Positions 16,826 through 27,291 of a stretch of DNA of 64,000 bases are shown one piece after another (within the stretch, counting starts at the first letter, position 1; each line of letters begins with the position of its first letter). Origin of the DNA: Escherichia phage vB_EcoM_DE16; sequence record OP595145.1; one strand, given 5' to 3'. Both the position numbers and the translations under genes were made by a program. The notes beneath the pieces are model-generated. The model ran no database searches and was not told where the DNA came from. It saw only the letters and a program-made list of their open reading frames with translations.

Positions 16826-17953
16826 TTATTCTGCTGGTTCCCAAGTGCCTGGGATCATTTCTCGAATACGAACACCAACAGGTTTTGTTGGAATACCTTC
16901 ATCTGAAAATTCTTCATACTCTATTTCAACGAACTGATTAATCAAGGTAGAAGCATTCTCTGCTTTACGATAATTGATAGTCTCATGAGCATCTTTACGC
17001 ATTAAGAATTCAACTACTTTACCATTTTCCATCTCACCTGTCAACACTCCATCGCCATTTTTATCACTTTTTGAATTTATTACTTTAACTTCAAGCGTAT
17101 GACGAGGCTTACGTTTAATAACATCATAAGAACGTTTATCAAATTCGTAAACTCCGTGAGCATTACGATATACTACACCTTCAGCTTTCTCAAGTAAAGC
17201 TTTTTCATAGAAAGCATCAAACTGTTCTTGGTTTTCGATATACTCTGTATGAACTACACAAATAAGCTCATCAAGACCATAATCCTCCACTACTGCCTTA
17301 AGAGCAGTAAGAACATCAACACGTTTTTCAAACGGTAGATCTGGAACTGGAATATCGTATACGTAATAATTCAGCAAAGGTGTATTTGCATTATGCTTCT
17401 TCCAGGCACTGTTAATTTGTTGCAGACTAAGGACACCTAACCCAGCAAACACTTCACCATCAAGAGGATGACCAACAACTTCACTAATAAAGTTTGGAAT
17501 ACCTTTCCAATGAGGTGGCAGGTTATACACTTCCCCAGCTTTTGATAAGCACTCCCCTTTCATGTTAATCATAGAACGTAACCCGTTCAGTTTGTATTGT
17601 GCATAACCAGGGAACACAACCCTTTCAGGATAATCTTTATAATCCTGGCATTTCATTGGTGTGGAAGGAACATGGTTTTCAGCTTCTTCTTTTGTTTTAT
17701 AATAGCCATTCTTTAACTGTTTTGTCCATTTGGCAAAAGCTTCAAGTTCAGCTTGTTCTTCCGGTGTTGTTTCATTGGAACGACCAATGTTTTTTGCTTC
17801 TGCTGTATAAGATTTTTCTGTGATTTTTCCACCTACCCTTCCATGAGCTACAGTAACAACTGCACCATCTGTATACACTGTCCACTGTTTAAGTTTTCCT
17901 TTTGAATCTTTACCATACAGCGTTTGATTTGTTTGTTGCATTAGTCCTCCCAT
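16826..17953 (-). CDS. ATP-dependent DNA ligase
   Basis: 375 aa; KLNGLR nucleotidyltransferase motif I region and OB-fold-like C-terminus. Confidence 0.7.
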   Translation of the reverse strand: MGGLMQQTNQTLYGKDSKGKLKQWTVYTDGAVVTVAHGRVGGKITEKSYTAEAKNIGRSNETTPEEQAELEAFAKWTKQLKNGYYKTKEEAENHVPSTPMKCQDYKDYPERVVFPGYAQYKLNGLRSMINMKGECLSKAGEVYNLPPHWKGIPNFISEVVGHPLDGEVFAGLGVLSLQQINSAWKKHNANTPLLNYYVYDIPVPDLPFEKRVDVLTALKAVVEDYGLDELICVVHTEYIENQEQFDAFYEKALLEKAEGVVYRNAHGVYEFDKRSYDVIKRKPRHTLEVKVINSKSDKNGDGVLTGEMENGKVVEFLMRKDAHETINYRKAENASTLINQFVEIEYEEFSDEGIPTKPVGVRIREMIPGTWEPAE

Positions 17954-18162
17954 TTAAAAACTGAAATTTTCAATCTGTTACACACTTCATCCAAATCTGC
18001 GTCGAGTAACGTTGTAGATGTTGCCAACATATAATCAATGCTTGTGAAACCTTGCCCTTTGGCATAGTCAAGCATATCTTCATACATATCTTCAAGATCA
18101 CCGTCATCAAAAGTAGCTAGAAAATCCTCGTCCCCACTACGAACATAAAATGCAGTACTCAT
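17941..18162 (-). CDS. hypothetical protein (73 aa, acidic)
   Basis: ORF only. Confidence 0.45.
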   Translation of the reverse strand: MSTAFYVRSGDEDFLATFDDGDLEDMYEDMLDYAKGQGFTSIDYMLATSTTLLDADLDEVCNRLKISVFKWED

Positions 18163-18350
18163 TCTTCTTCATCCCAAGATTCAAAAGCACAACAATCATC
18201 GGTTTCTATAATACCAACACGTCCGCAGGTATTGCAAGTGATTTTATCCCCGTAGAATAAATAATTTTTATCACCCTCTGTGTTTACAGTTATGTCATTA
18301 CTACCACAAGGGCAAGTCAGCCAACCAACAACAACGATATCTTTTTTCAT
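18159..18350 (-). CDS. zinc-ribbon protein (63 aa)
   Basis: CPCG ... CNTCG cysteine pairs. Confidence 0.45.
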   Translation of the reverse strand: MKKDIVVVGWLTCPCGSNDITVNTEGDKNYLFYGDKITCNTCGRVGIIETDDCCAFESWDEEE

Positions 18351-18359
18351 AATCCCTCC

Positions 18360-18686
18360 TTAAGCGTTCAGTTCGTTGTTGAGTTCGTAAATCTCTTCTT
18401 GAAGAGCATCAATCTCTTCCTCCAAACGGGAGATCTCTTCTTTTAGATATACCATTTCGGATTCTTTCTCTTCTAATTCATTTTCAAATTTTACTTTATT
18501 AGCCTCATTTTCATAATGCAGTTCAGCGTAATCATCACGCATTTGTTCAATAAGATGAATCAGAGACAAGATATAATTATCTCCCGTTTCATCACGCCAC
18601 TCTTCACCGTGACGGAGAACGGTAATTCGTCCAGTATCTTCATCTAAAATTGTCTCATATTTACGATCATCTGTATAAATCTGCAT
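18360..18686 (-). CDS. coiled-coil protein (108 aa)
   Basis: heptad-rich EEIxRLEEEIDALQEEIYEL C-terminus. Confidence 0.45.
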   Translation of the reverse strand: MQIYTDDRKYETILDEDTGRITVLRHGEEWRDETGDNYILSLIHLIEQMRDDYAELHYENEANKVKFENELEEKESEMVYLKEEISRLEEEIDALQEEIYELNNELNA

Positions 18687-18695
18687 TATTTCTCC

Positions 18696-19100
18696 TTATT
18701 GAAGTTTAAGTGAACCACGAAGACGTTTCTCTTGCTGATCACGGATATATTGTGGAACCTCGTGAATTGAATCATTACCGTGCCTATTTTCAACAACTAA
18801 AGAGATAACTTGATAACCAAACTCTTCAGCAAGAGCTAGATAAGGTTTAAGTTCTTTCTCTGTGGTTGAAGTATTAGAAACAATAATCTTGTTAAGATTA
18901 GATGCCATAGCATCACGAACAATACCCTGACACCATGCGTGTGCTTTACCTACATTTTCTGGCTTCCAGTCGTAAACACCACTTTCTGTGTAATGATATT
19001 GATCTGCCTCACAGATAGGCCAATAACCTTCAGAAATAATTTCTGCTACCGTAGATTTACCAGCACCTGAAACGCCACGTAAAATGATAAGTTGTTTCAT
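18696..19100 (-). CDS. P-loop kinase (polynucleotide/nucleotide kinase-like)
   Basis: Walker A GVSGAGKST at N-terminus; 134 aa. Confidence 0.55.
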   Translation of the reverse strand: MKQLIILRGVSGAGKSTVAEIISEGYWPICEADQYHYTESGVYDWKPENVGKAHAWCQGIVRDAMASNLNKIIVSNTSTTEKELKPYLALAEEFGYQVISLVVENRHGNDSIHEVPQYIRDQQEKRLRGSLKLQ

Positions 19101-20033
19101 TTATCCTCCAAAGAAGTTTTCGATTTTTTCACGTCGCTCTTGCTGATTTAAAGCAGCCCATTGAGTCTTCGTAAAATTATTTCGAATCCATTCTAACAAA
19201 GCGTAATATTCTTCGTCAACAATTTGTTTGGCATTTTTCGGATTATCCCAAATCAGATCCCACTTTTTATCTCCACCGCGCATAAGAAACTTCTTAGTAA
19301 GATAGTGTGGTGATTTAATTTTTAAAAGTAAGTTGAACGGATAGTTTGTTTCACGAACTACAAACCCTTCGTGTTTACAATGTTTAGACATTTCAACAAC
19401 ATCTGAAAACTTAACCATTGGATGAACTTCAGGACGCTTAAATTTGGTGACAGAAGCAATTCCATCAAGAGCACCTTCAGGTAACATAAAACTTGTCCCA
19501 TCAGGTTTTTGAATTCTGGCACCAATTAAGTATGCACCTGGTTCTTCTTCGACAATATGCGGATCAGAAGGATCACAGATTTCAAAAAGGAAAGTTGCTT
19601 TTGCGCTCTCTGTCCATTTGATGAAATGTTCTATGTCATCACACTCTGAAACAATATGATTCTTTGCAATACTTGCAAAATCTGATTCAAGGCTTCCTGT
19701 TGTCGATACAATAAGTTGACCTTTATATACACCTACAGAGGCCATAAAACCATTTACTTTACGAACCACATCTACAAGTTCATCCGCTGGTAGATCTGTG
19801 CCATTCTCAAAACGATTAAAAATCTTAGTGAAAGGCCAAATAACAACATTGTCATCACCATCAACAACGATTCCGCGACATTCTAGAAGACGAGAATCAA
19901 TGTTCCATAGGTTATCCCAGAAAACTTTGTTCTTATACTTAAGAACAGATAGACCAGAATACTCTCCTTCTTTATATGTTTTCTTATGAACTAAACCTTT
20001 TTCAACCAAATCGTCGCAATTAAATTTAGTCAC
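19101..20033 (-). CDS. RNA ligase-like nucleotidyltransferase
   Basis: KVNGF motif I lysine; second ligase-type gene besides the DNA ligase, flanked by kinase and phosphatase genes. Confidence 0.45.
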   Translation of the reverse strand: MTKFNCDDLVEKGLVHKKTYKEGEYSGLSVLKYKNKVFWDNLWNIDSRLLECRGIVVDGDDNVVIWPFTKIFNRFENGTDLPADELVDVVRKVNGFMASVGVYKGQLIVSTTGSLESDFASIAKNHIVSECDDIEHFIKWTESAKATFLFEICDPSDPHIVEEEPGAYLIGARIQKPDGTSFMLPEGALDGIASVTKFKRPEVHPMVKFSDVVEMSKHCKHEGFVVRETNYPFNLLLKIKSPHYLTKKFLMRGGDKKWDLIWDNPKNAKQIVDEEYYALLEWIRNNFTKTQWAALNQQERREKIENFFGG

Positions 20034-20034
20034 A

Positions 20035-20586
20035 TTACTCTCCTTTGATTATTTTGTGATGGTCTACAGTTACGATATCTCGTTTACTCATCATAGAAAT
20101 TATCTCATCAAAATGCAAGATTTTTCCGTGTGCATCCCAACCCACATCTAACATTTTACCATAAGCTTCATCAGGGAAAGATCCGTGGGAATGCCCGTGT
20201 AGCATGATTGATCCACGACCTTGTTTATTCCAGGAGGCAATAGGGTAATGGCTTAAGACGAAGAACAGCTTCTGGTATTTCACTTCGTCATAATACACCA
20301 CTTCGCCATACTCTGCAAGCACTTCTCGGTGCTTGCTGTAATCATGGTTCCCAACAAGATAAGTGATATCCCCTTGCAGACGGGAAGCAATCTTACGGGT
20401 ATCTTCTTCAGTCCCGAAACAGAAGTCGCCCAAATGCCACATCTTAACACCAGGAGTAGTAGCGCATTTATTCCATGCTTCGATCAGTGCTTCTGTCATG
20501 TGGTCCATATCTTCCCACGGTCGATATTCAGGAGCAAACTCTCGTATACGTTTGTGCATAAAATGCAAATCACTTGTAATAAACAT
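20035..20586 (-). CDS. calcineurin-like metallophosphoesterase
   Basis: DLHF, GDF, GNHD, GHSHG metal-binding motifs in canonical order. Confidence 0.6.
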   Translation of the reverse strand: MFITSDLHFMHKRIREFAPEYRPWEDMDHMTEALIEAWNKCATTPGVKMWHLGDFCFGTEEDTRKIASRLQGDITYLVGNHDYSKHREVLAEYGEVVYYDEVKYQKLFFVLSHYPIASWNKQGRGSIMLHGHSHGSFPDEAYGKMLDVGWDAHGKILHFDEIISMMSKRDIVTVDHHKIIKGE

Positions 20587-20942
20587 TAGTATAATCCCTC
20601 GCTAAATAGGTCACGATCATGACCATTACGTTCGTAGTCAATCTGGTCTGCGTGTTTTGCAATAATGTATGCATCTTCACGACTCCACCAATTGTAGTAT
20701 TGATCAATAAAACCTTGATTGTTTGGAAGACAATGCACTTTATCAAGCACACCTGCTTCTTTCAATACATTCAATTGTGCTGATAATATAGGATTTGCAT
20801 GTCGAACACAAGGAATAATTAACTCTTCACCATTATTCAAAATATATTTATTCGCAGCACAGACGATAACACGTTGCACATAATGACCCTCACCAATCCA
20901 GGTAAGAGGTTGGTAACAAATGTTCTGATCAATACTACTCAT
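20586..20942 (-). CDS. hypothetical protein (118 aa)
   Basis: ORF only. Confidence 0.5.
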   Translation of the reverse strand: MSSIDQNICYQPLTWIGEGHYVQRVIVCAANKYILNNGEELIIPCVRHANPILSAQLNVLKEAGVLDKVHCLPNNQGFIDQYYNWWSREDAYIIAKHADQIDYERNGHDRDLFSEGLY

Positions 20943-20953
20943 TAAGTTTCTCC

Positions 20954-21310
20954 TTAATAGTGAACACGAATCATTTTAATACCATAACGCAGCATGGATT
21001 CTTTTGCAAGCATGAATTTATCCCCAGCGGCGGGATTAGAAGTATGCACGAAAATGGTAGGTGAACCAAAGCAAGGTTTACCAAACGCCAGAAGTTCTTC
21101 CAAACGCAAGAAAACATCATACCCGTCTTGATCAGAATCTTCACCCAAATCGTTGTCAAAATGCCACTCGTCTACAAAACGATAACCCTTCTGCACCTCA
21201 TTCATGTAACGAGAGGCAAGAAGTTCCTGTGAGGTTTTAAACCAGATTGCATCTGGACAACCATAATCTTTTGGATCACGTAAATCATCAAGCCAAATAA
21301 TAGTACCCAT
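20954..21310 (-). CDS. hypothetical protein (118 aa)
   Basis: ORF only. Confidence 0.5.
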   Translation of the reverse strand: MGTIIWLDDLRDPKDYGCPDAIWFKTSQELLASRYMNEVQKGYRFVDEWHFDNDLGEDSDQDGYDVFLRLEELLAFGKPCFGSPTIFVHTSNPAAGDKFMLAKESMLRYGIKMIRVHY

Positions 21311-21320
21311 ATAACCTCCT

Positions 21321-21791
21321 CTAAGCTGGCATTATTAAAAAAGAACTCTCCACTTCAAAATGCCAATCATCCACAAGCCCTGATTCCCAATCCTTCTCTT
21401 CATGGAAAGAGCAAATCCAACGGTACATACCTGGCGGTGTATTCTCAACATCTTCTGGCAACCCGTAATCCAAAGCTGTCAAACCGTTCTCTGTAAAACT
21501 AGGATGGAGATTAGGAGCTTTCAATACAGAAACCATGCCTCCAACATCTACAGCCACAATCCACTCTGTCATGTATGGGCTGTCATATTGAGGCTCATCA
21601 GAACCTACCTCAACAGCCTCTGTGCGTAAGATGATAATAGCCTGCTCTGTGATTGGGGCTTTGACAATATAACCTTGGTCCTCAAAAAGATCGATAACCT
21701 CGAACTCATCGCCGTTTTCGACACCATAACTCTTATTCAAAGAGATAAACTTCGGGTTATCATCGTAAGCTTTAGTTACTTTAATTTTCAT
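21321..21791 (-). CDS. hypothetical protein (156 aa)
   Basis: ORF only. Confidence 0.5.
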   Translation of the reverse strand: MKIKVTKAYDDNPKFISLNKSYGVENGDEFEVIDLFEDQGYIVKAPITEQAIIILRTEAVEVGSDEPQYDSPYMTEWIVAVDVGGMVSVLKAPNLHPSFTENGLTALDYGLPEDVENTPPGMYRWICSFHEEKDWESGLVDDWHFEVESSFLIMPA

Positions 21792-22012
21792 TTTTCCTCC
21801 TTCACTTTAACCTCAAATTCTACAGGCTTACCCTCAATGTAAAAACACTGATACTCTGCCTTATCATCCTCGTCACGAGGCCAAGTTACCAAGGAGTTAT
21901 AGCAATCTTCTGGTGCTTTGAAGATGTTTTTAGTCTCCACAGTAACATTCCCATTAAGTGTTGCCAATACCACCCAACCAGCTACAGGGATCATAGTGTC
22001 TCCACTTTCCAC
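21788..22012 (-). CDS. hypothetical protein (74 aa)
   Basis: ORF only. Confidence 0.4.
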   Translation of the reverse strand: MESGDTMIPVAGWVVLATLNGNVTVETKNIFKAPEDCYNSLVTWPRDEDDKAEYQCFYIEGKPVEFEVKVKEEK

Positions 22013-22173
22013 GTTTTACCATTATCAACCAAGGTCTTTGCTACAGCATACTCCTTCCCATTAACAAGGAAATAATAAACGATAAAAGATTTCCCGATTG
22101 TTACTGTCTTAGTAACCTCTACACGTTTAACGCCTTGCATGTATTTTGCCTTACCGGAATAGAGTAAAATCAT
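21991..22173 (-). CDS. hypothetical protein (60 aa)
   Basis: ORF only. Confidence 0.35.
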   Translation of the reverse strand: MILLYSGKAKYMQGVKRVEVTKTVTIGKSFIVYYFLVNGKEYAVAKTLVDNGKTWKVETL

Positions 22174-22451
22174 TTTGCATTCCTCTTGTTGTTGATAACA
22201 TCCATAGCAGTATATGGTTTATTAGTGCCATGATACTCCAGAATCATTGGAGAGCCTTCTTGCACTACTTCAAAGATACCATAAACAGAACTTTCAGCAA
22301 ATACCATTTGCTTCGTGCCTTCATCGTTTACAACGAGAGAAAACTTCTTGCCTGTCCCGTTGAGGATCTCGTATTTCTTGCCAGCAGTGAATAATCCAGA
22401 GTACCACTCATTATCTGTTGCTTTTACACACTTCAGGAAAGTCTTGATCAT
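22170..22451 (-). CDS. hypothetical protein (93 aa)
   Basis: ORF only. Confidence 0.45.
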   Translation of the reverse strand: MIKTFLKCVKATDNEWYSGLFTAGKKYEILNGTGKKFSLVVNDEGTKQMVFAESSVYGIFEVVQEGSPMILEYHGTNKPYTAMDVINNKRNAK

Positions 22452-22801
22452 TTCTTTTTGCTCCTCTTTTTAGATTTCTCATACAAACCTAACACAGCCG
22501 CTTCTTTTGCACAAGTAGGAACTGAAGTCATTCCTCTTCTTTTTGCTTCTGGAAGATTGAGTGTCCACCATCCGAACCAATAAATTTGGTCTGCCGTGAG
22601 TGGTTCAGCCATTGGATCTGCCTCCTGCTCCTCAAGACGTTGCAACGCTTCTTCAATCTTCTCGATTGGTGTGTCAAAGACGAATGCCTCCGTATCAAAT
22701 TTATCTTTCTTAGGAACTGATTTGGCTACTTTGAGAACCTCGTTTTTCGGTTTCTTAGTAACGTTCTTTGGCTTTGATAACTTCTTCTGTGTTTTCGCCA
22801 C
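22448..22801 (-). CDS. lysine-rich hypothetical protein (117 aa)
   Basis: K-rich N- and C-termini, possible nucleic-acid binding. Confidence 0.45.
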   Translation of the reverse strand: MAKTQKKLSKPKNVTKKPKNEVLKVAKSVPKKDKFDTEAFVFDTPIEKIEEALQRLEEQEADPMAEPLTADQIYWFGWWTLNLPEAKRRGMTSVPTCAKEAAVLGLYEKSKKRSKKK

Positions 22802-22994
22802 TTACTACCTCCATACGATCTAAAAAGTCATTCACAAATCTCCAGTAACGTTGACCTGTTCTAAGATCTTCATAGATAACCACAGGATCAAACACTTTAG
22901 ATATTCCGGCAGGTTTTGGAAATTCCACTACTGTATATAAACCACCTTTTGCTACACAAGAATAGGTTACGCCTGTAATTGGATAGTTGCTCAT
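22755..22994 (-). CDS. hypothetical protein (79 aa)
   Basis: ORF only. Confidence 0.4.
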   Translation of the reverse strand: MSNYPITGVTYSCVAKGGLYTVVEFPKPAGISKVFDPVVIYEDLRTGQRYWRFVNDFLDRMEVVSGENTEEVIKAKERY

Positions 22995-23185
22995 TTCTTT
23001 ACGTACTCCATGATTGGGGTATGGTCGCCAGTAAGCGTAACACGGCTGTAGGACACATCTTGTGTCTTCAGTGTATCAATCCACTCTAAGAAGTGTTCTT
23101 TCGCTTCTGTGTAGTTCTGTGTGCCTTTAACAACGTGTATACCATCTAGAGTTACACGGAATACCATTTGAATAACGTCTTTCAT
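22991..23185 (-). CDS. hypothetical protein (64 aa)
   Basis: ORF only. Confidence 0.4.
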   Translation of the reverse strand: MKDVIQMVFRVTLDGIHVVKGTQNYTEAKEHFLEWIDTLKTQDVSYSRVTLTGDHTPIMEYVKK

Positions 23186-23298
23186 TTCTTACCTCCTTTG
23201 TTGTCAAAATAACTTACCAGAACATCGTGAACCACACACATGGCAAAAATCAGAACAATTGTTGTCAGGACTGGATTCTCACTAATTAGTGCTATCAT
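23182..23298 (-). CDS. small membrane protein (38 aa)
   Basis: internal ATG with GGAGGTGG RBS; single hydrophobic helix. Confidence 0.3.
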   Translation of the reverse strand: MIALISENPVLTTIVLIFAMCVVHDVLVSYFDNKGGKK

Positions 23299-23605
23299 CT
23301 TTAACCACCTCCAATTGCCTTTCGAGTTTGACTTTGTTTGAGAACTGATAATGACACAACTTACATTGCATGTCAACAATCTGATCGTGATTTAACCCTA
23401 CAATTTTAACTTCCTTTGCACCATCCCACTCCAAATACTCAAAGCCATCCAAATGATTACTCTTGTCCAACAGGAATGCTATCTGCTGCCATTCAATCTG
23501 AATGTCATTTAAATGATATGCTGCACAGAAGATATCCTCATAGTAAAAGACGATCATTGTCATTGCTTCGTCCAGCACAACTACCTCTTGTCTTGTAAAT
23601 CTCAT
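23282..23605 (-). CDS. hypothetical protein (107 aa), first gene of the minus-strand arm
   Basis: ORF adjacent to divergent control region. Confidence 0.45.
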   Translation of the reverse strand: MRFTRQEVVVLDEAMTMIVFYYEDIFCAAYHLNDIQIEWQQIAFLLDKSNHLDGFEYLEWDGAKEVKIVGLNHDQIVDMQCKLCHYQFSNKVKLERQLEVVKDDSTN

Positions 23606-23859
23606 TCTAGCCTCCTAAACGCGTCTCTGACGCACTTTTTATATATAAGATGATAAATCACCTTACCTAGTAAGTGAACTTGCTCTACGAGCCTCTTATG
23701 AAGCTTATGTTATAGGCTATACTATTGCTACCTGTTTAAGCAAGGTTTTTGCACACAGAAAATAATTTTTAATAAAACTCTTGACTTTTGTGTTCGAAGT
23801 ATGCTACCCTAGAAATCTATTAACGAGCGCAGCGAGTTAAGGTTTTAGGTTGTTGATGT

Positions 23860-24060
23860 AGTATTCTGTACTAAAGTACTGTACTCCGTACTAGATTAAT
23901 AATTATTAAATATTAATAATAAATAATTATTAGATCTAACAAACAGGTACAGTGTATCAGAACTGGTACGTACAGATCAACTTCTATCAATTAAAAAATA
24001 AAATAATAAATTATTATAAATAATACTTGATCTATAGATCAGTATGAAGTACAGTACGGA
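23860..24060. promoter_or_regulatory. divergent control region with GTAC-containing iterons flanking AT-rich palindromes; origin or operator candidate
   Basis: four GTACT copies at 23866-23893, GGTACAG / GTACGTACAG / GTACAGTACGG repeats, AT-only palindromic tracts 23896-23935 and 23990-24027, GATCTATAGATC palindrome. Confidence 0.3.
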
Positions 24061-24087
24061 ACATCTTAACAAGAATGGAGGTGTGCA

Positions 24088-24273
24088 ATGATTAGTGAGA
24101 ATCCGTGCAAATGGCATCATGTGCCTATTAAAGATTGTATGTCTTGTAATCCACGTTCTATTTATAACATTGCATCTTATGACGATGACAATGTGTTAGA
24201 CGATGATGAAGGCTGGGAGGATTTAGATTGGACTGGTTATGAAACCAAAAAGGATAAAATTATTCCTAGTTGA
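24088..24273 (+). CDS. hypothetical protein (61 aa)
   Basis: GGAGG RBS before ATG. Confidence 0.45.
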   Translation: MISENPCKWHHVPIKDCMSCNPRSIYNIASYDDDNVLDDDEGWEDLDWTGYETKKDKIIPS

Positions 24274-24310
24274 CTTAAGATATCCTTCGTGCTAAACTAG
24301 AAGTGAGGAG

Positions 24311-24562
24311 ATGCCGATCACTCCCCATTTGGGGTTCGAAGGATATATGCAAAATAGTTTTTATTTTAGGTGCCGTGCTTGTAATAGGCATTTGACAAAC
24401 CACTCCAGACGTGATAAAAATGGAGTCATCAAGGAATCAGACCTCTGTTCTATTTGCACAGGTTTGGCTTTTGATGATAGTCCCGAAAGGGTTTATCAGC
24501 ATCAATGTATAACAGACGTTCTCGTGTCAAACTTGGTAGAGGACGAACAACTAACAGATTAG
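24311..24562 (+). CDS. cysteine-rich hypothetical protein (83 aa)
   Basis: GAGGAG RBS; CRACN ... CSICTG cysteine pairs. Confidence 0.45.
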   Translation: MPITPHLGFEGYMQNSFYFRCRACNRHLTNHSRRDKNGVIKESDLCSICTGLAFDDSPERVYQHQCITDVLVSNLVEDEQLTD

Positions 24563-24570
24563 GAGGAACA

Positions 24571-24819
24571 ATGTCTCTATTAGAAAAACACGTGTTTGAA
24601 GATGGTAACGGCAATGCAGTTTTTCTTTTCCATCCAGAAAAATACACATCTGAAAACAATGGTACAACTTCTATTGTAATCACTAAAGATGTTAAAGTTA
24701 TTGATTTCTTGGCTCTAATGCGAGAGATGGATCTTGAAATTAATACTTTTAACGCAGAAGCTTTGGTTGTTGCTCTTCTGGAAAAGAAAGATAGTGAAGA
24801 AGTAGCAGAATATGCTTAA
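24571..24819 (+). CDS. hypothetical protein (82 aa)
   Basis: start set at internal ATG 24571 preceded by AGGAGG. Confidence 0.45.
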   Translation: MSLLEKHVFEDGNGNAVFLFHPEKYTSENNGTTSIVITKDVKVIDFLALMREMDLEINTFNAEALVVALLEKKDSEEVAEYA

Positions 24820-24826
24820 ATAACTA

Positions 24827-24856
24827 TTGACAAACGTATCCTTCATATGTTAGGAT
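24827..24856 (+). promoter_or_regulatory. sigma70-like promoter candidate (ACTATTGACA -35 box)
   Basis: TTGACA at 24827 then 17 nt then TTAGGAT; shares motif with the other promoter candidates listed. Confidence 0.35.
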
Positions 24857-25064
24857 ACGTTCATCAAGTGTGGTAAGAGGGTCGTTGACTTTTGTTAAGA
24901 TGGGCTTGCACTGCGGTAGTGTTAGAGACTACTTCTTCAGAGGTTAGCTACCAAAGAGGAAAAGGAATAGTCTCGGCTCAAGAACTTTTACGCTGAAAGT
25001 TGGGCTTGGTCTTAGAGAATGTAGCGGTTCTCTACAATCGTCAGCGTCTCTGTTACCACATTTA

Positions 25065-25139
25065 TGGCCCTGTAGCTCAATGGGAGAGCTGTCGGCTCAT
25101 AACCGATAGGTAGCTGGATCGAAACCAGCCAGGGCCACC
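25065..25139 (+). tRNA. tRNA, anticodon CAT (Ile2 lysidine-type or Met)
   Basis: manual cloverleaf: acceptor GGCCCTG/CAGGGCC, anticodon loop CTCATAA, T-loop, encoded CCA; resembles bacterial tRNA-Ile2. Confidence 0.7.
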
Positions 25140-25142
25140 AAC

Positions 25143-25217
25143 GTCTTTATGGTGTAATGGATAGCACAGGAGTCTTCTAAACTCTTAGTCAAGGTTCGAT
25201 TCCTTGTAAAGACACCA
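25143..25217 (+). tRNA. tRNA-Arg (anticodon TCT)
   Basis: acceptor GTCTTTA/TAAAGAC, anticodon loop CTTCTAA, T-loop GGTTCGATTCC, encoded CCA. Confidence 0.7.
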
Positions 25218-25413
25218 GAATATTTTAACATGAATTAGCTCAAGTGATTTGAACCCCACTACTGATCATGGTGGCAGAGAATGAGGCAAGTATGTCAGAC
25301 ATTATAAACAAAGGCCACGGTTATATTAGAAGACATAGACGCTCGAAGAGCACCGTTCGTGGAGAACGGGGGTTGGTGGAGTCACCATTCATGGTAAAAT
25401 GTTTTAAAAAACT

Positions 25414-25443
25414 ATTGACAACAAACATTATTTTATGTTAGAT
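25414..25443 (+). promoter_or_regulatory. sigma70-like promoter candidate (ACTATTGACA -35 box)
   Basis: TTGACA then 17 nt then TTAGAT, upstream of tRNA-Ser. Confidence 0.4.
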
Positions 25444-25451
25444 TATAAGTA

Positions 25452-25542
25452 TGGAAGGGCAAATCGACGTGGCGACGAAAACGGTCTTGAAAACCGCCGA
25501 GCTTGAAAGAGCCTTGGGAGTTCGACTCTCCCTCCTTCCGCC
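25452..25542 (+). tRNA. tRNA-Ser (anticodon TGA), class II
   Basis: anticodon loop CTTGAAA, long variable arm, T-arm GGGAGTTCGACTCTCCC, discriminator G, encoded CCA; D-arm fold is irregular. Confidence 0.6.
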
Positions 25543-25547
25543 AGATT

Positions 25548-25633
25548 AGGTAGATTGGTGAAATGGTAGCCACAACAGTTTGCTAAACTGTAGTCGGAAA
25601 CGGCGTGTAGGTTCGAGTCCTACATCTACCGCC
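25548..25633 (+). tRNA. tRNA-Ser (anticodon GCT), class II
   Basis: acceptor GGTAGAT/ATCTACC, anticodon loop TTGCTAA, variable-arm hairpin, discriminator G, CCA. Confidence 0.7.
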
Positions 25634-25763
25634 AAGTTCTTTTTAATATAGCTTACTTTAATAGAGTAAACTTTCGGCAGATGGCCTCCACCATCTTACC
25701 GATACTTCATAGTTAGTGGTGCGAACACTGGCTATTTTAAAAAGAATTTAAATACTAGCATTT

Positions 25764-25851
25764 AGGTGAGTTAATTCCGTAGGGGTAGCGGGGCAGACTG
25801 TAAATCTGTTATCATTGCGATTCGGGTGGTTCGACTCCATCACTCACCACC
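25764..25851 (+). tRNA. tRNA-Tyr (anticodon GTA), class II
   Basis: acceptor GGTGAGT/ACTCACC, anticodon loop CTGTAAA, long variable arm, discriminator A, CCA. Confidence 0.7.
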
Positions 25852-25857
25852 AAATTA

Positions 25858-25943
25858 AGATGAGTTGGCTGAATGGTTTAAGCGGCGGACTGTTAATCCG
25901 TGTTCGAAAGAACGATATAGGTTCAAATCCTATACTCATCGCC
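25858..25943 (+). tRNA. class II tRNA with anticodon GTT (Asn anticodon on a Ser/Tyr-type body); identity unresolved
   Basis: perfect 7-bp acceptor GATGAGT/ACTCATC, 3-bp D stem, anticodon stem GCGGA/TCCGT with loop CTGTTAA, 15-nt variable arm (GTTC-GAAA-GAAC), T-arm ATAGGTTCAAATCCTAT, discriminator G, CCA. Confidence 0.6.
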
Positions 25944-25950
25944 AGAATTA

Positions 25951-26027
25951 TGGACTTGTAGAGTTAAGGTAAACCCCCAGTCGCCAAGAGGCTTCTGGAA
26001 TTGCAGGTATCGAATCCTGCCGAGTCC
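25951..26027 (+). tRNA. tRNA-like element with aberrant D/anticodon arms (possible tRNA pseudogene)
   Basis: 7-bp acceptor GGACTTG/CGAGTCC and T-arm GCAGG-TATCGAAT-CCTGC (8-nt loop) but no 5-bp anticodon stem with 7-nt loop; no encoded CCA. Confidence 0.3.
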
Positions 26028-26033
26028 CAGCTT

Positions 26034-26108
26034 TGCTCCTATAGTATAATGGCTATTACAACGGTTTTGTAATCCGTGGATCTCTGTTCGATTCAGAGTG
26101 GGAGCACC
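26034..26108 (+). tRNA. tRNA-Thr (anticodon TGT)
   Basis: acceptor GCTCCTA/TGGGAGC, anticodon loop TTTGTAA, T-arm CTCTGTTCGATTCAGAG, CCA. Confidence 0.65.
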
Positions 26109-26608
26109 AACATAACAGGTAAGAACATTTAGGCTACTGAGAAATCATCCGAGGCAATCAGACCTATCTTCTGTTAAGTGTTCTTATCGTTGTGAAGAAA
26201 GCAAACTTATTGAATGTAAGCGGACGAAAGACATTCACTAACCTGTAGTAAGGTCGAGCCAAAGCGCGGTAATGAGTTCCGAGGTTAGTATTCACAACAC
26301 AACATTAAGAGCACTGTGATTGATCGTCGTATCCTGTGCACAAGGTCTGCTCGAAAGACAGTGTTCTTAGTATTGTGTTGATCACAAAAAGAGTTACCTG
26401 AAACTTGACCGGAGTAGGGTTGGATGGGGCAAAAGAAGAAGCGGCTCTCCCATCGACAGCAACGAAGAATAATATTTGACTTTGGTTTTGTATTATTTTA
26501 AGTTAGCTTACCGAACGTAGGGCTAGTCACCCAATGGGATACTCGTCACTGTCCCACTCAATAAAACTATTGACAACCAATAGTAAAATGTAGTATAGTA
26601 AAGATGTA
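26109..26608 (+). ncRNA. ORF-free, tRNA-free 0.5 kb spacer inside the tRNA cluster; structured ncRNA candidate
   Basis: no ORF of 60 aa or more on either strand, no T-loop motif; long-range complementary pairs AAGAACA/TGTTCTT and TTGTGAA/TTCACAA. Confidence 0.25.
26569..26598 (+). promoter_or_regulatory. sigma70-like promoter candidate (ACTATTGACA -35 box)
   Basis: TTGACA then 18 nt then TATAGT, upstream of tRNA-Gly. Confidence 0.45.
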
Positions 26609-26609
26609 G

Positions 26610-26683
26610 GGCGTTCTTGGTGTAGCGGTAGCATTCCGTCCTTCCAAGTCGGCGGCACGAGTTCGATCCTCGTAGAACGCTCC
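26610..26683 (+). tRNA. tRNA-Gly (anticodon TCC)
   Basis: acceptor GCGTTCT/AGAACGC, anticodon loop CTTCCAA, T-arm ACGAGTTCGATCCTCGT, CCA. Confidence 0.65.
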
Positions 26684-26781
26684 AAATTATTTAATAAAGG
26701 GTTGCCAGAAAACTTTCTCTTTTACTCATGGTTTTCTCCTTCTCTCACACCTCTTCTGGTTGCCCTTCATTAAATGATTTA

Positions 26782-26857
26782 TTGGTTTGTAGTGTAGTCA
26801 GGTAGCACACGACACTTTGACTGTCGTAGGTTTGGTTCAAATCCAGACAGACCAGCC
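26782..26857 (+). tRNA. tRNA-Gln (anticodon TTG)
   Basis: acceptor TGGTTTG/CAGACCA, anticodon stem-loop CGACA-CTTTGAC-TGTCG, T-loop TTCAAAT, CCA. Confidence 0.65.
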
Positions 26858-26862
26858 ATATA

Positions 26863-26939
26863 ACGGAATTTAGCTCAGTTTGGTAGAGTGTACGCTTTGG
26901 GAGCGTATTGTCGCAGGTTCGAATCCTGCAATTCCGACC
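26863..26939 (+). tRNA. tRNA-Pro (anticodon TGG)
   Basis: acceptor CGGAATT/AATTCCG, anticodon stem-loop TACGC-TTTGGGA-GCGTA, T-arm GCAGGTTCGAATCCTGC, CCA. Confidence 0.7.
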
Positions 26940-26945
26940 AATTAA

Positions 26946-27019
26946 ATGTTTCGTAGTTCAATGGTAGAACCCACGACTGATAATCGTGAGACACAAGTTC
27001 GATTCTTGTCGAAACAACC
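26946..27019 (+). tRNA. tRNA-Ile (anticodon GAT)
   Basis: acceptor TGTTTCG/CGAAACA, anticodon stem-loop CACGA-CTGATAA-TCGTG, T-arm, CCA. Confidence 0.7.
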
Positions 27020-27021
27020 AG

Positions 27022-27093
27022 TTTCCCGTTAGACTTACAGGATAAGAGTTCCACAGCTTATTGTGATGCTGGTTCGAATCCAGCACGGGATAC
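27022..27093 (+). tRNA. tRNA-like element lacking a canonical anticodon arm (pseudo-tRNA or non-canonical tRNA)
   Basis: good acceptor (TTCCCGT/ACGGGAT), D-arm and T-arm GCTGGTTCGAATCCAGC, but only 16 nt between D- and T-arms, forming CACAG/TTGTG stem with 4-6 nt loop; 3' end ACC not CCA. Confidence 0.3.
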
Positions 27094-27097
27094 CTAA

Positions 27098-27176
27098 TAG
27101 CGGGATAGAGGAGTCTGGTCGTCCTCGCCAGTTTCATATGCTGGAGATCATTGGTTCAAATCCAATTCCCGCCTCC
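27098..27176 (+). tRNA. tRNA-Met (anticodon CAT), possibly initiator-like
   Basis: anticodon stem-loop CCAGT-TTCATAT-GCTGG, T-loop TTCAAAT, acceptor AGCGGGA/TCCCGCC with A1:C72 mismatch, CCA. Confidence 0.6.
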
Positions 27177-27291
27177 AAATATCGCTTGCCAGCGGTATCT
27201 TTGAAGACCTTGCCTGGTTCCTTCTAAGATGGAGGGGTGCGACTCCTTAACGCACAATTATAATAAAGCATTTCAAATTAACAGTATTTAT

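What the first reader, a model, noticed from the sequence alone, without database searches (positions are those of the whole stretch)
20586..23605. Promoter-proximal block of about twelve small uncharacterised ORFs (candidate host-takeover or anti-defence genes)
The first genes transcribed from the control region on the minus strand are compact, partly overlapping ORFs of 38-156 aa with no recognisable enzymatic motifs, including a lysine-rich protein and a small membrane protein. In lytic phages this position typically holds host-shutoff and anti-defence factors, which are a common source of new inhibitors.
Basis: inference. Interest (0 to 1): 0.4.

Follow-up and report, generated by a model that had tools for sequence, protein, structure and literature searches.

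The report
Small early genes of phAPEC8-like phage
This is a real, tightly packed run of eleven small genes at the head of a long operon in a phAPEC8-like E. coli phage; the last two most likely belong to a predicted RNA-end-repair module, the rest have no known function, and the whole block is already catalogued in over a hundred phage genomes.

Summary
The window is a Phapecoctavirus (phAPEC8-like myovirus; 99% identical to Shigella phage SF1-1). The block holds 11 genes, not 12, of 38-156 aa on the minus strand. They have strong ribosome-binding sites and 4-nt overlaps, and they evolve under purifying selection, so they are real genes.

The block is not uniform. g10 is a cREC "cyclic-phosphate-processing receiver" domain protein with an intact D-D/D/T/K site. 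g11 is a homologue of T4 Arn.3 (Pfam T4_Y16D), so its "anti-restriction nuclease" label is name bleed. Both run without a break into a metallophosphatase, an Rnl1 RNA ligase and a P-loop kinase. This is the predicted RNA heal-and-seal neighbourhood already described for rV5-like phages.

g5, the lysine-rich protein, is a supergroup core gene and is not a transposase. g1, g3, g4, g6 and g7 are restricted to the subfamily. g2 is a 38-aa membrane protein. g8 and the acidic g9 (SH3-like fold, DUF8046) are restricted to the genus and are the best inhibitor candidates.

One relative, phiWec186, lacks the ligase and kinase anywhere in its genome but keeps cREC, Y16D and the phosphatase. No protein matched a known anti-defence factor. 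The finding is mostly ordinary, with one modest lead: the Arn.3/Y16D family.

The parts
23650..23678 (-). Candidate sigma-70-type promoter for the block (TTCACT, 17 nt, TATCAT), 45-73 nt upstream of the g1 start
   Evidence: Consensus scan, 9 of 12 matches. Its spacer contains AGGTAAGGTGATT (23656-23668), which is invariant between Phapecoctavirus and Justusliebigvirus muut and unique in the window. Function is not shown, and the scan is not enriched over shuffles.
23621..23633 (-). Short GC hairpin (GCGTC-AGA-GACGC) in the presumed 5' UTR, just upstream of the g1 ribosome-binding site
   Evidence: muut has a hairpin of different sequence at the same position (read from alignment A5). Its role is unknown.
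23282..23605 (-). g1, 107 aa, acidic (pI 4.7); function unknown; restricted to Stephanstirmvirinae
   Evidence: phrog_14390, E 1e-60. Found in 132 phage records, with phi92-like phages at about 42% identity. dN/dS 0.04. No PDB or Pfam match.
23182..23298 (-). g2, 38 aa, single-pass membrane protein; restricted to Phapecoctavirus
   Evidence: phrog_26968. Hydropathy maximum 2.45. Intact in phiWec186 with five conservative substitutions. Absent from muut.
22991..23185 (-). g3, 64 aa; function unknown; restricted to Stephanstirmvirinae
   Evidence: phrog_15683. 48% identity in muut. dN/dS 0.07.
22755..22994 (-). g4, 79 aa; weak resemblance to DUF1653, below threshold; restricted to Stephanstirmvirinae
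   Evidence: PF07866 at 13.4 bits against a cut-off of 23.5. phrog_12584. 73% identity in muut. Its last 47 nt overlap g5, and the same overlap is found in muut.
22448..22801 (-). g5, 117 aa, lysine-rich. It has a variable, disordered N-terminal tail rich in K, P, A and S, a conserved core of about 70 aa (FDTEAFVF...YWWGWW...AKRRG...CAxE), and a poly-K/R C-terminus. It is a core gene of the rV5-like supergroup and probably binds nucleic acid (inferred).
   Evidence: Alignment A2. Found in 337 phage records, including Vequintavirus, Seunavirus, Justusliebigvirus and Aeromonas phages. Its homologue lies directly upstream of, and overlaps by 4 nt, the metallophosphoesterase gene in PVP-SE1. No transposase or any other Pfam, NCBIfam or PDB hit.
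22170..22451 (-). g6, 93 aa, basic; function unknown
   Evidence: phrog_10169, E 3e-42. Weak partial hit to phrog_14592 'virion structural protein', E 7.5e-6. 66% identity in muut.
21991..22173 (-). g7, 60 aa, basic; function unknown
   Evidence: phrog_15376. 76% identity in muut.
21788..21994 (-). g8, 68 aa, acidic; restricted to Phapecoctavirus
   Evidence: phrog_15821. Absent from muut, PVP-SE1 and typing phage 4.
21321..21791 (-). g9, 156 aa, very acidic (pI 4.2), with two small beta-rich domains. The N-terminal part (residues 1-62) is almost unique to the genus, with one hit elsewhere. The C-terminal part (about 64-153) is DUF8046 (PF26219) and is shared with T4-like, Certrevirus and other phages. 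This is the best candidate in the block for an accessory binding or inhibitor protein (inferred).
20954..21310 (-). g10, 118 aa, cREC domain protein (cyclic-phosphate-processing receiver domain; predicted metal-independent phosphoesterase)
   Evidence: PF20274, E 3.4e-13, 50.5 bits against a cut-off of 27. D8, D9, D52, N53, D54, T90, S91, N92 and K98 are invariant in orthologues from four genera. Encoded close to Rnl1 in Seunavirus, Vequintavirus and Justusliebigvirus.
20586..20942 (-). g11, 118 aa, T4 Arn.3 / Pfam T4_Y16D family; function unknown; enzyme-like
20035..20586 (-). Calcineurin-like metallophosphatase, 183 aa (outside the finding, same array)
   Evidence: phrog_547 'phosphoesterase', E 1e-55. 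Metallophos_2 at 22.6 bits, below the cut-off of 27. PDB 1xm7, E 2e-6.
19101..20033 (-). Rnl1-type RNA ligase, 310 aa (outside the finding)
   Evidence: PF09511, E 3.4e-15, above the cut-off.
18696..19100 (-). P-loop kinase, 134 aa, resembling a polynucleotide kinase (outside the finding)
   Evidence: AAA_33, E 2.7e-10. phrog_505 'polynucleotide kinase', E 8e-8.

Best explanation
The block is the promoter-proximal end of one long, gap-free leftward gene array of a Phapecoctavirus. It is a composite of three parts.

(1) g10 and, less certainly, g11. g10 (cREC) and g11 (T4 Arn.3/Y16D family) are the first genes of a nucleic-acid end-processing cassette. The cassette continues into a calcineurin-like phosphatase, an Rnl1 ligase and a P-loop kinase. 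The most likely mechanism is healing and sealing of tRNA cut by host anticodon nucleases. cREC would open the 2',3'-cyclic phosphate, the metallophosphatase would remove the phosphate, the kinase would phosphorylate the 5'-OH, and Rnl1 would seal the break. That is counter-defence by repair, acting alongside the phage's own tRNA cluster across the divergent region. g11's step is unknown; its invariant R-H / Q-G-F-x-D / R / S-E residues suggest a small enzyme.

(2) g5. This is a supergroup-conserved basic protein that probably binds nucleic acid, so a housekeeping or regulatory role is more likely than a variable weapon.

(3) g1-g4 and g6-g9. These are small lineage-restricted proteins that probably act by binding host or phage partners. 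The genus-restricted, acidic, fast-diverging g9 (with g8 and the membrane peptide g2) is the most plausible host-directed or anti-defence factor.

What is shown: gene reality, family assignments, synteny, and the conservation classes. What is inferred: every biochemical step, the timing of expression, and any host target.
For: Identity of the phage.

Real genes.

One uninterrupted array: from g1 through the DNA ligase, no gap between genes exceeds 11 nt, and most junctions are 1-4 nt overlaps. No terminator-like site lies on the minus strand in 18000-25200.

g10 is cREC, above Pfam's gathering score, with the receiver-type acidic, T/S and K residues invariant.

The downstream genes are a metallophosphatase, Rnl1 and an AAA_33 kinase resembling polynucleotide kinase.

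The same gene set (cREC, Rnl1, kinase, phosphoesterase, MazG, DNA ligase, with Sir2 in some) is clustered in Seunavirus PVP-SE1, Vequintavirus and Justusliebigvirus. Iyer et al. 2022 (PMC9503650) and 2021 (PMC7824862) already interpreted this neighbourhood as RNA-end clean-up and repair.

Y16D lies directly upstream of Rnl1, phosphatase and kinase in a second lineage whose cassette proteins are only 34-42% identical (IMG/VR L075). It is one small gene away from a Metallophos gene in a third (L010).

Against: No biochemical data exist for cREC; the authors themselves call it experimentally uncharacterised. None exist for Y16D either.

phiWec186, a Phapecoctavirus, has no Rnl1 or kinase homologue anywhere in its genome, yet it keeps cREC, Y16D and a 96%-identical phosphatase. 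The trio therefore does not strictly need a phage ligase.

Y16D lies within 5 kb of this phosphatase family in only 4 of 51 dereplicated lineages. In T-even phages it sits among unrelated early genes, so its link to repair is weak.

The metallophosphatase's Pfam score is below the cut-off. Neither the phosphatase nor the kinase has a characterised solved relative.

The promoter and early timing are unverified.

For g1-g9 there is no functional evidence at all. The g9 model is only moderate (pTM 0.49), and its SH3-like matches are generic.
Confidence: 0.55

Rival explanations
1. One reading: the block as a whole is a set of small host-shutoff or anti-defence inhibitors that act by binding host proteins, as the early genes of T4 and T7 do.
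For: The block sits at the head of the leftward cluster, next to a divergent control region. The proteins are small, and several are acidic (g1, g8 and g9). g2, g8 and g9 are restricted to the genus. g9 to g11 lie in a hot spot of divergence and gene gain or loss. No homology to structural or metabolic proteins was found.
Against: g5 and g10 are core genes across the whole rV5-like supergroup. g10 and g11 look like enzymes and are physically part of the ligase cassette. There are no PADLOC, Pfam or PDB matches to any known inhibitor. Phi92-like relatives that share g1, g3-g7, g10 and g11 are exceptionally sensitive to RM systems. g1-g8 are 91-100% identical within the genus, so they are not evolving fast.
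Confidence: 0.3
2. cREC, Y16D and the metallophosphatase form a self-sufficient trio that destroys small-molecule immune signals or ADP-ribose derivatives (2',3'-cyclic nucleotides, cyclic ADPR-type molecules, ADPr>P) rather than repairing RNA. Its adjacency to the ligase would then be incidental or secondary.
For: phiWec186 keeps the trio, with the phosphatase 96% identical, but has no Rnl1 or kinase in its whole genome. The authors of cREC propose processing of cADPr or 2',3'-cyclic nucleotides as an alternative role. In the metagenomic phage L010, Y16D and a Metallophos gene sit in a region that also encodes NAMPT, a HAD_SAK_2 phosphatase and a WYL_2 domain. Relatives encode NAMPT and Prs across the same divergent region.
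Against: The cREC-Rnl1-kinase clustering is conserved across four genera. phiWec186 is a single observed case. The host's own ligase could in principle substitute (inferred). No activity data exist.
Confidence: 0.25
3. Most of g1-g9 serve the phage's own programme (regulators of early or middle transcription, replication or nucleoid organisation) rather than acting on host defences. g5 would be a basic DNA- or RNA-binding regulator.
For: g5's architecture and its conservation across the supergroup. The order g3-g7 is conserved, with a conserved 47-nt g4/g5 overlap in Justusliebigvirus. Purifying selection is strong.
Against: No HTH or other DNA-binding domain is detectable. There is no structure model for g5 and there are no expression data.
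Confidence: 0.3
4. Some of the smallest ORFs (g2, g7, g8) are annotation artefacts rather than genes.
For: They are very short. g2 shows no variation among close relatives.
Against: They have strong ribosome-binding sites and ATGA-type coupling. g2 stays intact in phiWec186 with only conservative changes. dN/dS is 0.13-0.25 for g7 and g8. They match PHROG families at E 1e-32 to 1e-41. There is no non-coding space left between the genes.
Confidence: 0.03

Closest known systems
The rV5/Mydo-type predicted RNA-repair neighbourhood: sirtuin, T4-like tRNA ligase, cREC, nucleotide kinase, MazG, sometimes a calcineurin-like phosphoesterase (Iyer, Burroughs, Anantharaman and Aravind 2022, PMC9503650)
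   Same: The window encodes cREC, an Rnl1 ligase, a P-loop kinase and a calcineurin-like phosphoesterase, with MazG and an ATP-dependent DNA ligase further along the same strand. Orthologues are clustered in PVP-SE1 and in a Vequintavirus.
   Different: In Stephanstirmvirinae the order is cREC, (small gene), Y16D, phosphatase, Rnl1, kinase. A Y16D gene is inserted, and Sir2 is not in the cassette. In phiWec186 Sir2 lies about 35 kb away, and none is present in this window. One member has lost the ligase and kinase altogether.
T4 Pnk + Rnl1 tRNA repair, which counters the PrrC anticodon nuclease (established knowledge of the T4 system)
   Same: The ligase family is the same (PF09511). The logic of kinase, phosphatase and ligase is the same. 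A phage tRNA cluster lies nearby.
   Different: The kinase and phosphatase are separate proteins. The phosphatase is calcineurin-like rather than HAD-type. There is an extra cREC protein. No host nuclease target is known for these phages.
T4 Arn.3 (UniProt Y16D; Pfam PF26092 T4_Y16D)
   Same: g11 is 45% identical to T-even Arn.3 over 95% of its length and shares all the invariant residues of the family.
   Different: g11 lacks the N-terminal extension of about 45 residues seen in T-even Arn.3 (118 aa against 162 aa in JS10). Its genomic context differs: an RNA-repair cassette here, and a run of early genes between motA and asiA in T-even phages. The family has no known function, so this comparison gives a name and no mechanism.
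Early 'host-takeover' gene blocks of lytic phages, such as the T4 and T7 early regions (established knowledge)
   Same: Small, tightly packed, mostly orphan genes next to a divergent control region.
   Different: No expression timing is known here. No member is homologous to a characterised takeover or anti-defence protein. Two members look like enzymes, and two are deeply conserved core genes.

Membership tests
cREC (PF20274, cyclic-phosphate-processing receiver domain), for g10 | Match to the family profile above the curated threshold | tested here: met
   E 3.4e-13, 50.5 bits against a gathering score of 27, covering residues 4-100.
cREC, for g10 | Receiver-type active site: an acidic pair after strand 1, an aspartate after strand 3, and conserved T/S and K residues | tested here: met
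   D8, D9, D52, N53, D54, T90, S91, N92 and K98 are invariant in six orthologues from four genera. The strand assignment is inferred from the receiver fold and was not modelled here.
cREC, for g10 | Context: linked to RNA ligases or NAD/ADPr-processing genes, never to histidine kinases (PMC7824862) | tested here: met
   Rnl1, a phosphatase and a kinase lie within 2 kb on the same strand. The same linkage is seen in three other genera. No histidine kinase is present in the locus.
cREC, for g10 | Hydrolysis of 2',3'-cyclic phosphate or cyclic ADPr-type bonds | not testable with these tools
   This is only a prediction in the literature.
T4_Y16D / Arn.3 (PF26092), for g11 | Sequence homology to T4 Arn.3 and a family-profile hit | tested here: met
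   tblastn gives 44-47% identity over residues 7-118 to T-even genomes, at the gene annotated arn.3. All 43 database homologues carry PF26092. The model is missing from the local Pfam copy, so g11 itself was not scored directly.
'Anti-restriction nuclease' (T4 Arn, the McrBC inhibitor), a label found on g11 in several records | Homology to Arn itself, or any nuclease or anti-restriction domain | tested here: not met
   The matches fall on arn.3, a neighbour of arn, and not on arn. There are no nuclease or anti-restriction hits in Pfam, NCBIfam or PADLOC. Relatives carrying g11 are RM-sensitive. A direct alignment with the Arn protein was not run.
Heal-and-seal RNA repair (T4 Pnk/Rnl1 or bacterial Pnkp type), for g10 and g11 plus the downstream genes | 5'-kinase, 3'-phosphatase or cyclic phosphodiesterase, and an ATP-dependent RNA ligase, encoded together | tested here: met
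   AAA_33, resembling polynucleotide kinase. Metallophosphatase: phrog_547 at E 1e-55, with its Pfam score below the cut-off. Rnl1, PF09511. These are family-level assignments only.
Heal-and-seal RNA repair | The components depend on each other and co-occur | tested here: inconclusive
   They co-occur in four genera. In phiWec186, however, the ligase and kinase are absent from the genome while cREC, Y16D and the phosphatase remain.
Transposase, a label found on g5 | Any transposase or integrase catalytic domain or HTH_Tnp domain | tested here: not met
   No hits in Pfam (E up to 1), NCBIfam or the PDB profile search. The protein is only 117 aa, and roughly a third of that is low-complexity basic tail.
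DUF1653 (PF07866), a label found on g4 | Profile match above the threshold | tested here: not met
   13.4 bits against a cut-off of 23.5, E 0.1.
DUF8046 (PF26219), for g9 | Profile match | tested here: met
   PF26219 is precomputed on all 67 homologues, including an identical sequence. The domain corresponds to residues 64-153 or thereabouts. Its function is unknown.
Known anti-defence proteins (Ocr, Acb, Tad, Gad, Acr and others), for g1-g9 | Homology to a characterised inhibitor | not testable with these tools

The most novel reading that the evidence does not exclude
The T4 Arn.3/Y16D family, present in about 1,500 sequenced phages including T4, is a small enzyme with a fold that has no solved relative. 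On this reading it works with cREC and a metallophosphatase as a ligase-independent trio on 2',3'-cyclic-phosphate or ADP-ribose-derived substrates. It would either prepare damaged RNA ends or destroy immune signalling molecules. This would give a first function to a long-orphaned T4 early gene.
Probability: 0.2. Interest if true: 0.65.

Novelty: new member of a known kind. Interest (0 to 1): 0.3.

Why it matters
As it stands, the finding is an ordinary, already-catalogued block of phage hypothetical genes. It is annotated in more than 100 Phapecoctavirus genomes, and every protein already has a PHROG family.

The useful outcomes are corrective and organisational:

- **Labels.** Three propagated labels have no support: "anti-restriction nuclease", "transposase-like" and "RNA ligase and tail attachment protein".
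- **Partition.** The block splits into a repair-cassette part, a deeply conserved basic protein, and a few truly accessory genes.
- **Candidates for screening.** Inhibitor screening can be narrowed to g9, g8 and g2.

If the Y16D lead holds, it would assign a biochemical role to a family found in T4 and roughly 1,500 other phage genomes. It would also clarify whether cREC systems repair RNA or degrade immune signals.

Tried and rejected
1. 'Y16D replaces Sir2 in this subfamily's cassette' is rejected. phiWec186 encodes a Sir2 that is 58% identical to the PVP-SE1 protein, about 35 kb away. The window simply does not reach that far.

2. 'Y16D is a conserved operon partner of the repair genes' is not supported in general. 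It lies within 5 kb of this phosphatase family in only 4 of 51 dereplicated lineages, and directly next to Rnl1 in only 2.

4. Fold matches for g9 are only generic SH3-like barrels. Longer DUF8046 proteins gave no informative fusions: one DUF551 and one sub-threshold zinc ribbon.

5. A repeated phage-specific promoter motif was not found. Both conserved intergenic islands occur only once in the window. The sigma-70 scan is not enriched.

6. Rfam finds nothing in 20000-25200 except tRNAs.

7. There is no paralogy among the block's proteins, or between them and the rest of the window.

8. Literature searches for Arn.3 and for phAPEC8 plus 'RNA ligase' returned nothing. The T4 CRISPRi-ART screen lists only frd.2 as a fitness gene of unknown function, which implies that arn.3 is dispensable in the laboratory (inferred).

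9. PADLOC and NCBIfam gave no meaningful hits for any block protein.

Full report
**What the window is.** Region 20000-24500 is 99.0% identical to Shigella phage SF1-1 and 96-99% identical to more than 50 other Phapecoctavirus genomes (phAPEC8-like myoviruses of about 150 kb, subfamily Stephanstirmvirinae). GC skew changes sign near position 24000. Everything to the left is read on the minus strand. It continues into genes for DNA ligase, RdgC, exonucleases, thymidylate synthase and ribonucleotide reductase. To the right lie a few small plus-strand ORFs and a cluster of ten tRNA genes.

**Checking the observation.** The stated interval holds eleven annotated genes, g1 to g11, of 38-156 aa.
- Nearly all have GGAGG-type Shine-Dalgarno sequences.
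- Junctions are mostly 4-nt overlaps. The g4/g5 overlap is 47 nt. From g1 to the DNA ligase gene, 6.8 kb downstream, no gap between genes exceeds 11 nt.
- All eleven show GC1 > GC2, and each belongs to a PHROG family at E 1e-29 to 1e-61.
- Against two congeners, dN/dS is 0.04-0.39 wherever substitutions exist.
- The 38-aa g2 was invariant in those comparisons. It is intact, though unannotated, in the more distant phiWec186, with five substitutions that preserve hydrophobic character.

The ORFs are therefore real genes. The lysine-rich protein is g5 and the membrane peptide is g2. Many relatives have a twelfth gene of 44-49 aa between g10 and g11, which this phage lacks.

**The control region.** The intergenic region 23606-24087 is AT-rich and has a palindromic core. 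A TTCACT-17-TATCAT site lies 45-73 nt upstream of g1. It sits inside a sequence island (AGGTAAGGTGATT) that is invariant between Phapecoctavirus and the distant Justusliebigvirus muut. Consensus promoter matches are no more frequent here than in shuffled sequence. The conserved islands occur only once in the window. No expression data were found in the two literature searches run on this phage group, and no search targeted transcriptomics directly. In phiWec186 an extra 70-aa gene precedes g1. 'First genes transcribed' is therefore plausible but remains an inference.

**g10 and g11 continue into an RNA-end-processing cassette.**
- g10 matches Pfam cREC_REC (50.5 bits, cut-off 27). It keeps the receiver-type residues D8, D9, D52, D54, T90 and K98 invariant across four genera.
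- The domain was defined by Iyer et al. as a predicted metal-independent enzyme that opens 2',3'-cyclic or cyclic-ADPr phosphates. It is found with RNA ligases and never with histidine kinases, and it is experimentally uncharacterised (PMC7824862 and PMC9503650).
- Directly downstream come g11, a calcineurin-like phosphatase whose start overlaps g11's stop by 1 nt, an Rnl1-type RNA ligase and an AAA_33 kinase resembling polynucleotide kinase.
- The same proteins are clustered in Seunavirus PVP-SE1, in a Vequintavirus and in Justusliebigvirus. This matches the published 'phage V5 / Mydo' neighbourhood of sirtuin, tRNA ligase, cREC, kinase, MazG and phosphoesterase.

The most economical reading is a heal-and-seal system for RNA, probably tRNA, cut by host nucleases. 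That is counter-defence by repair.

**g11.** Several records call g11 an 'anti-restriction nuclease'. It is in fact a homologue of T-even Arn.3 (44-47% identity), and the name has bled across from the neighbouring gene arn.
- The family is Pfam T4_Y16D (PF26092). It occurs in 1473 phage records across Straboviridae, Ackermannviridae, jumbo phages and others.
- Fifteen positions are invariant, including R47-H48, Q76-G77-F78-x-D80, R88 and S114.
- In BFVD it matches only uncharacterised relatives and, weakly, domains inside large polyvalent proteins.

Its link to repair genes recurs in a few lineages but is not general. It lies immediately upstream of Rnl1, phosphatase and kinase in a second lineage whose cassette proteins are only 34-42% identical (L075). 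It is one gene away from a Metallophos gene in a third (L010). Overall it lies near this phosphatase family in only 4 of 51 lineages, and in T-even phages it sits among unrelated early genes.

**A natural experiment.** phiWec186 keeps the whole block, with cREC, Y16D and a 96%-identical phosphatase. In the position of Rnl1 and the kinase it has a 112-aa ORF with an HEAIH motif. Its complete genome contains no homologue of either enzyme. It does encode a Sir2 about 35 kb away. That rules out my interim idea that Y16D substitutes for Sir2. The trio can therefore persist without a phage ligase. This keeps open a rival reading in which the trio acts on small-molecule signals or ADPr derivatives.

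**The other nine genes.**
- **g5** has a variable basic tail, a conserved core of about 70 aa and a poly-K/R end. It is conserved across the whole rV5-like supergroup (337 records). In PVP-SE1 it lies immediately upstream of the phosphoesterase gene. It shows no transposase or other known domain.
- **g1, g3, g4, g6 and g7** are shared with Justusliebigvirus at 42-76% identity. **g2, g8 and g9** are not.
- **g9** is very acidic (pI 4.2). Residues 64-153 or thereabouts form DUF8046, a small family (92 clusters at 50% identity among 1.84 billion representatives) that is shared patchily with T4-like and other phages. Its model is moderate (pLDDT 75) and resembles only generic SH3-like barrels.
- g9 to g11 are much more divergent between congeners than their flanks: dS 0.7-1.0, against 0.02-0.30 in the flanking genes.
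- No block protein has a paralogue in the window. None has a relative among solved structures or a match in PADLOC or NCBIfam.

[quoted passage not shown] Those relatives carry homologues of g1, g3-g7, g10 and g11. No Phapecoctavirus was in that panel, so this evidence is indirect.

**Verdict.** The promoter-distal end of the block belongs to a previously described, still untested, predicted RNA-repair neighbourhood. The rest is a mix of a deeply conserved basic protein and lineage-restricted small proteins, among which g9, g8 and g2 are the sensible inhibitor candidates.

Nothing here is categorically new, and the genes are already catalogued. The one lead with wider reach is the Arn.3/Y16D family. 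It is widespread, looks like an enzyme, has no characterised structural relative, and in this lineage sits between a cREC protein and a phosphatase.

Noticed in passing
L097 8724-9062 (phiWec186, LC739535.1); corresponds to window 18696-20033: In phiWec186 the Rnl1 ligase and the kinase are replaced by a 112-aa ORF with an HEAIH (zincin-like) motif. No Rnl1 or kinase homologue exists anywhere in that 154.5-kb genome, while cREC, Y16D, the phosphatase, MazG, the DNA ligase and Sir2 are all kept.
   Followed up: yes
window 20586-21791 (g9 to g11): A local hot spot of divergence and gene gain or loss. dS is 0.7-1.0 for g9, g10 or g11 against nepoznato or ESCO13, compared with 0.02-0.30 for the flanking genes. 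A gene of 44-49 aa between cREC and Y16D is present in many relatives and absent here. This suggests mosaic exchange.
   Followed up: partly
window 23606-24087: The divergent intergenic region has an AT-rich palindromic core (23895-23942). It also has three short islands conserved as far as Justusliebigvirus: AGGTAAGGTGATT at 23656-23668, TAGGGTAGCATACTT at 23797-23811 and CTCGCTGCGCT at 23826-23836, all on the minus strand. The two islands that were searched for (AGGTAAGGTGATT and TAGGGTAGCATACTT) occur only once in the window; CTCGCTGCGCT was not searched. Some records annotate a 55-nt 'repeat_region' here. The region could be operator sites or an origin, and its role is unexplained.
   Followed up: partly
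window 20954-21310, 20586-20942, 22448-22801, 24088-24273, 18360-18686: Propagated product names in public records have no support from the searches run here: 'RNA ligase and tail attachment protein' (g10), 'anti-restriction nuclease' (g11), 'transposase-like protein' (g5), 'tail protein' (a 61-aa plus-strand ORF) and 'hol-like chemotaxis' (an acidic 108-aa coiled-coil protein).
   Followed up: partly
window 25066-27177: A cluster of ten tRNA genes lies directly across the divergent region from the block. Relatives carry 10-20 tRNAs here. In Justusliebigvirus and Seunavirus, NAMPT (and in PVP-SE1 also Prs) lies in the corresponding region, but no NAMPT or Prs was found anywhere in this window.
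   Followed up: partly
L010 1-7267 (metagenomic phage contig, ENA ERZ23495255): An unrelated phage has Y16D, a 57-aa gene and a Metallophos gene in a row. Within 6 kb upstream it encodes NAMPT, a HAD_SAK_2 'Swiss-army-knife' phosphatase and a WYL_2 protein. This is an NAD- or RNA-end-processing-flavoured context for the Y16D family.
   Followed up: no
window 18360-18686, 18159-18350, 17941-18162: Three further small, very acidic proteins (pI 4.1-4.2) lie between the kinase and the DNA ligase. One is a coiled coil with 33 D+E in 108 residues. They occupy the position that Sir2 holds in PVP-SE1.
   Followed up: no
window 22755-22801: The 47-nt out-of-frame overlap between g4 and g5 is conserved in Justusliebigvirus muut. 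g5 starts at a GTG that follows a strong GGAGG, and its N-terminus (MAKTxKK) is conserved in homologues. Both frames are therefore coding across the overlap.
   Followed up: partly
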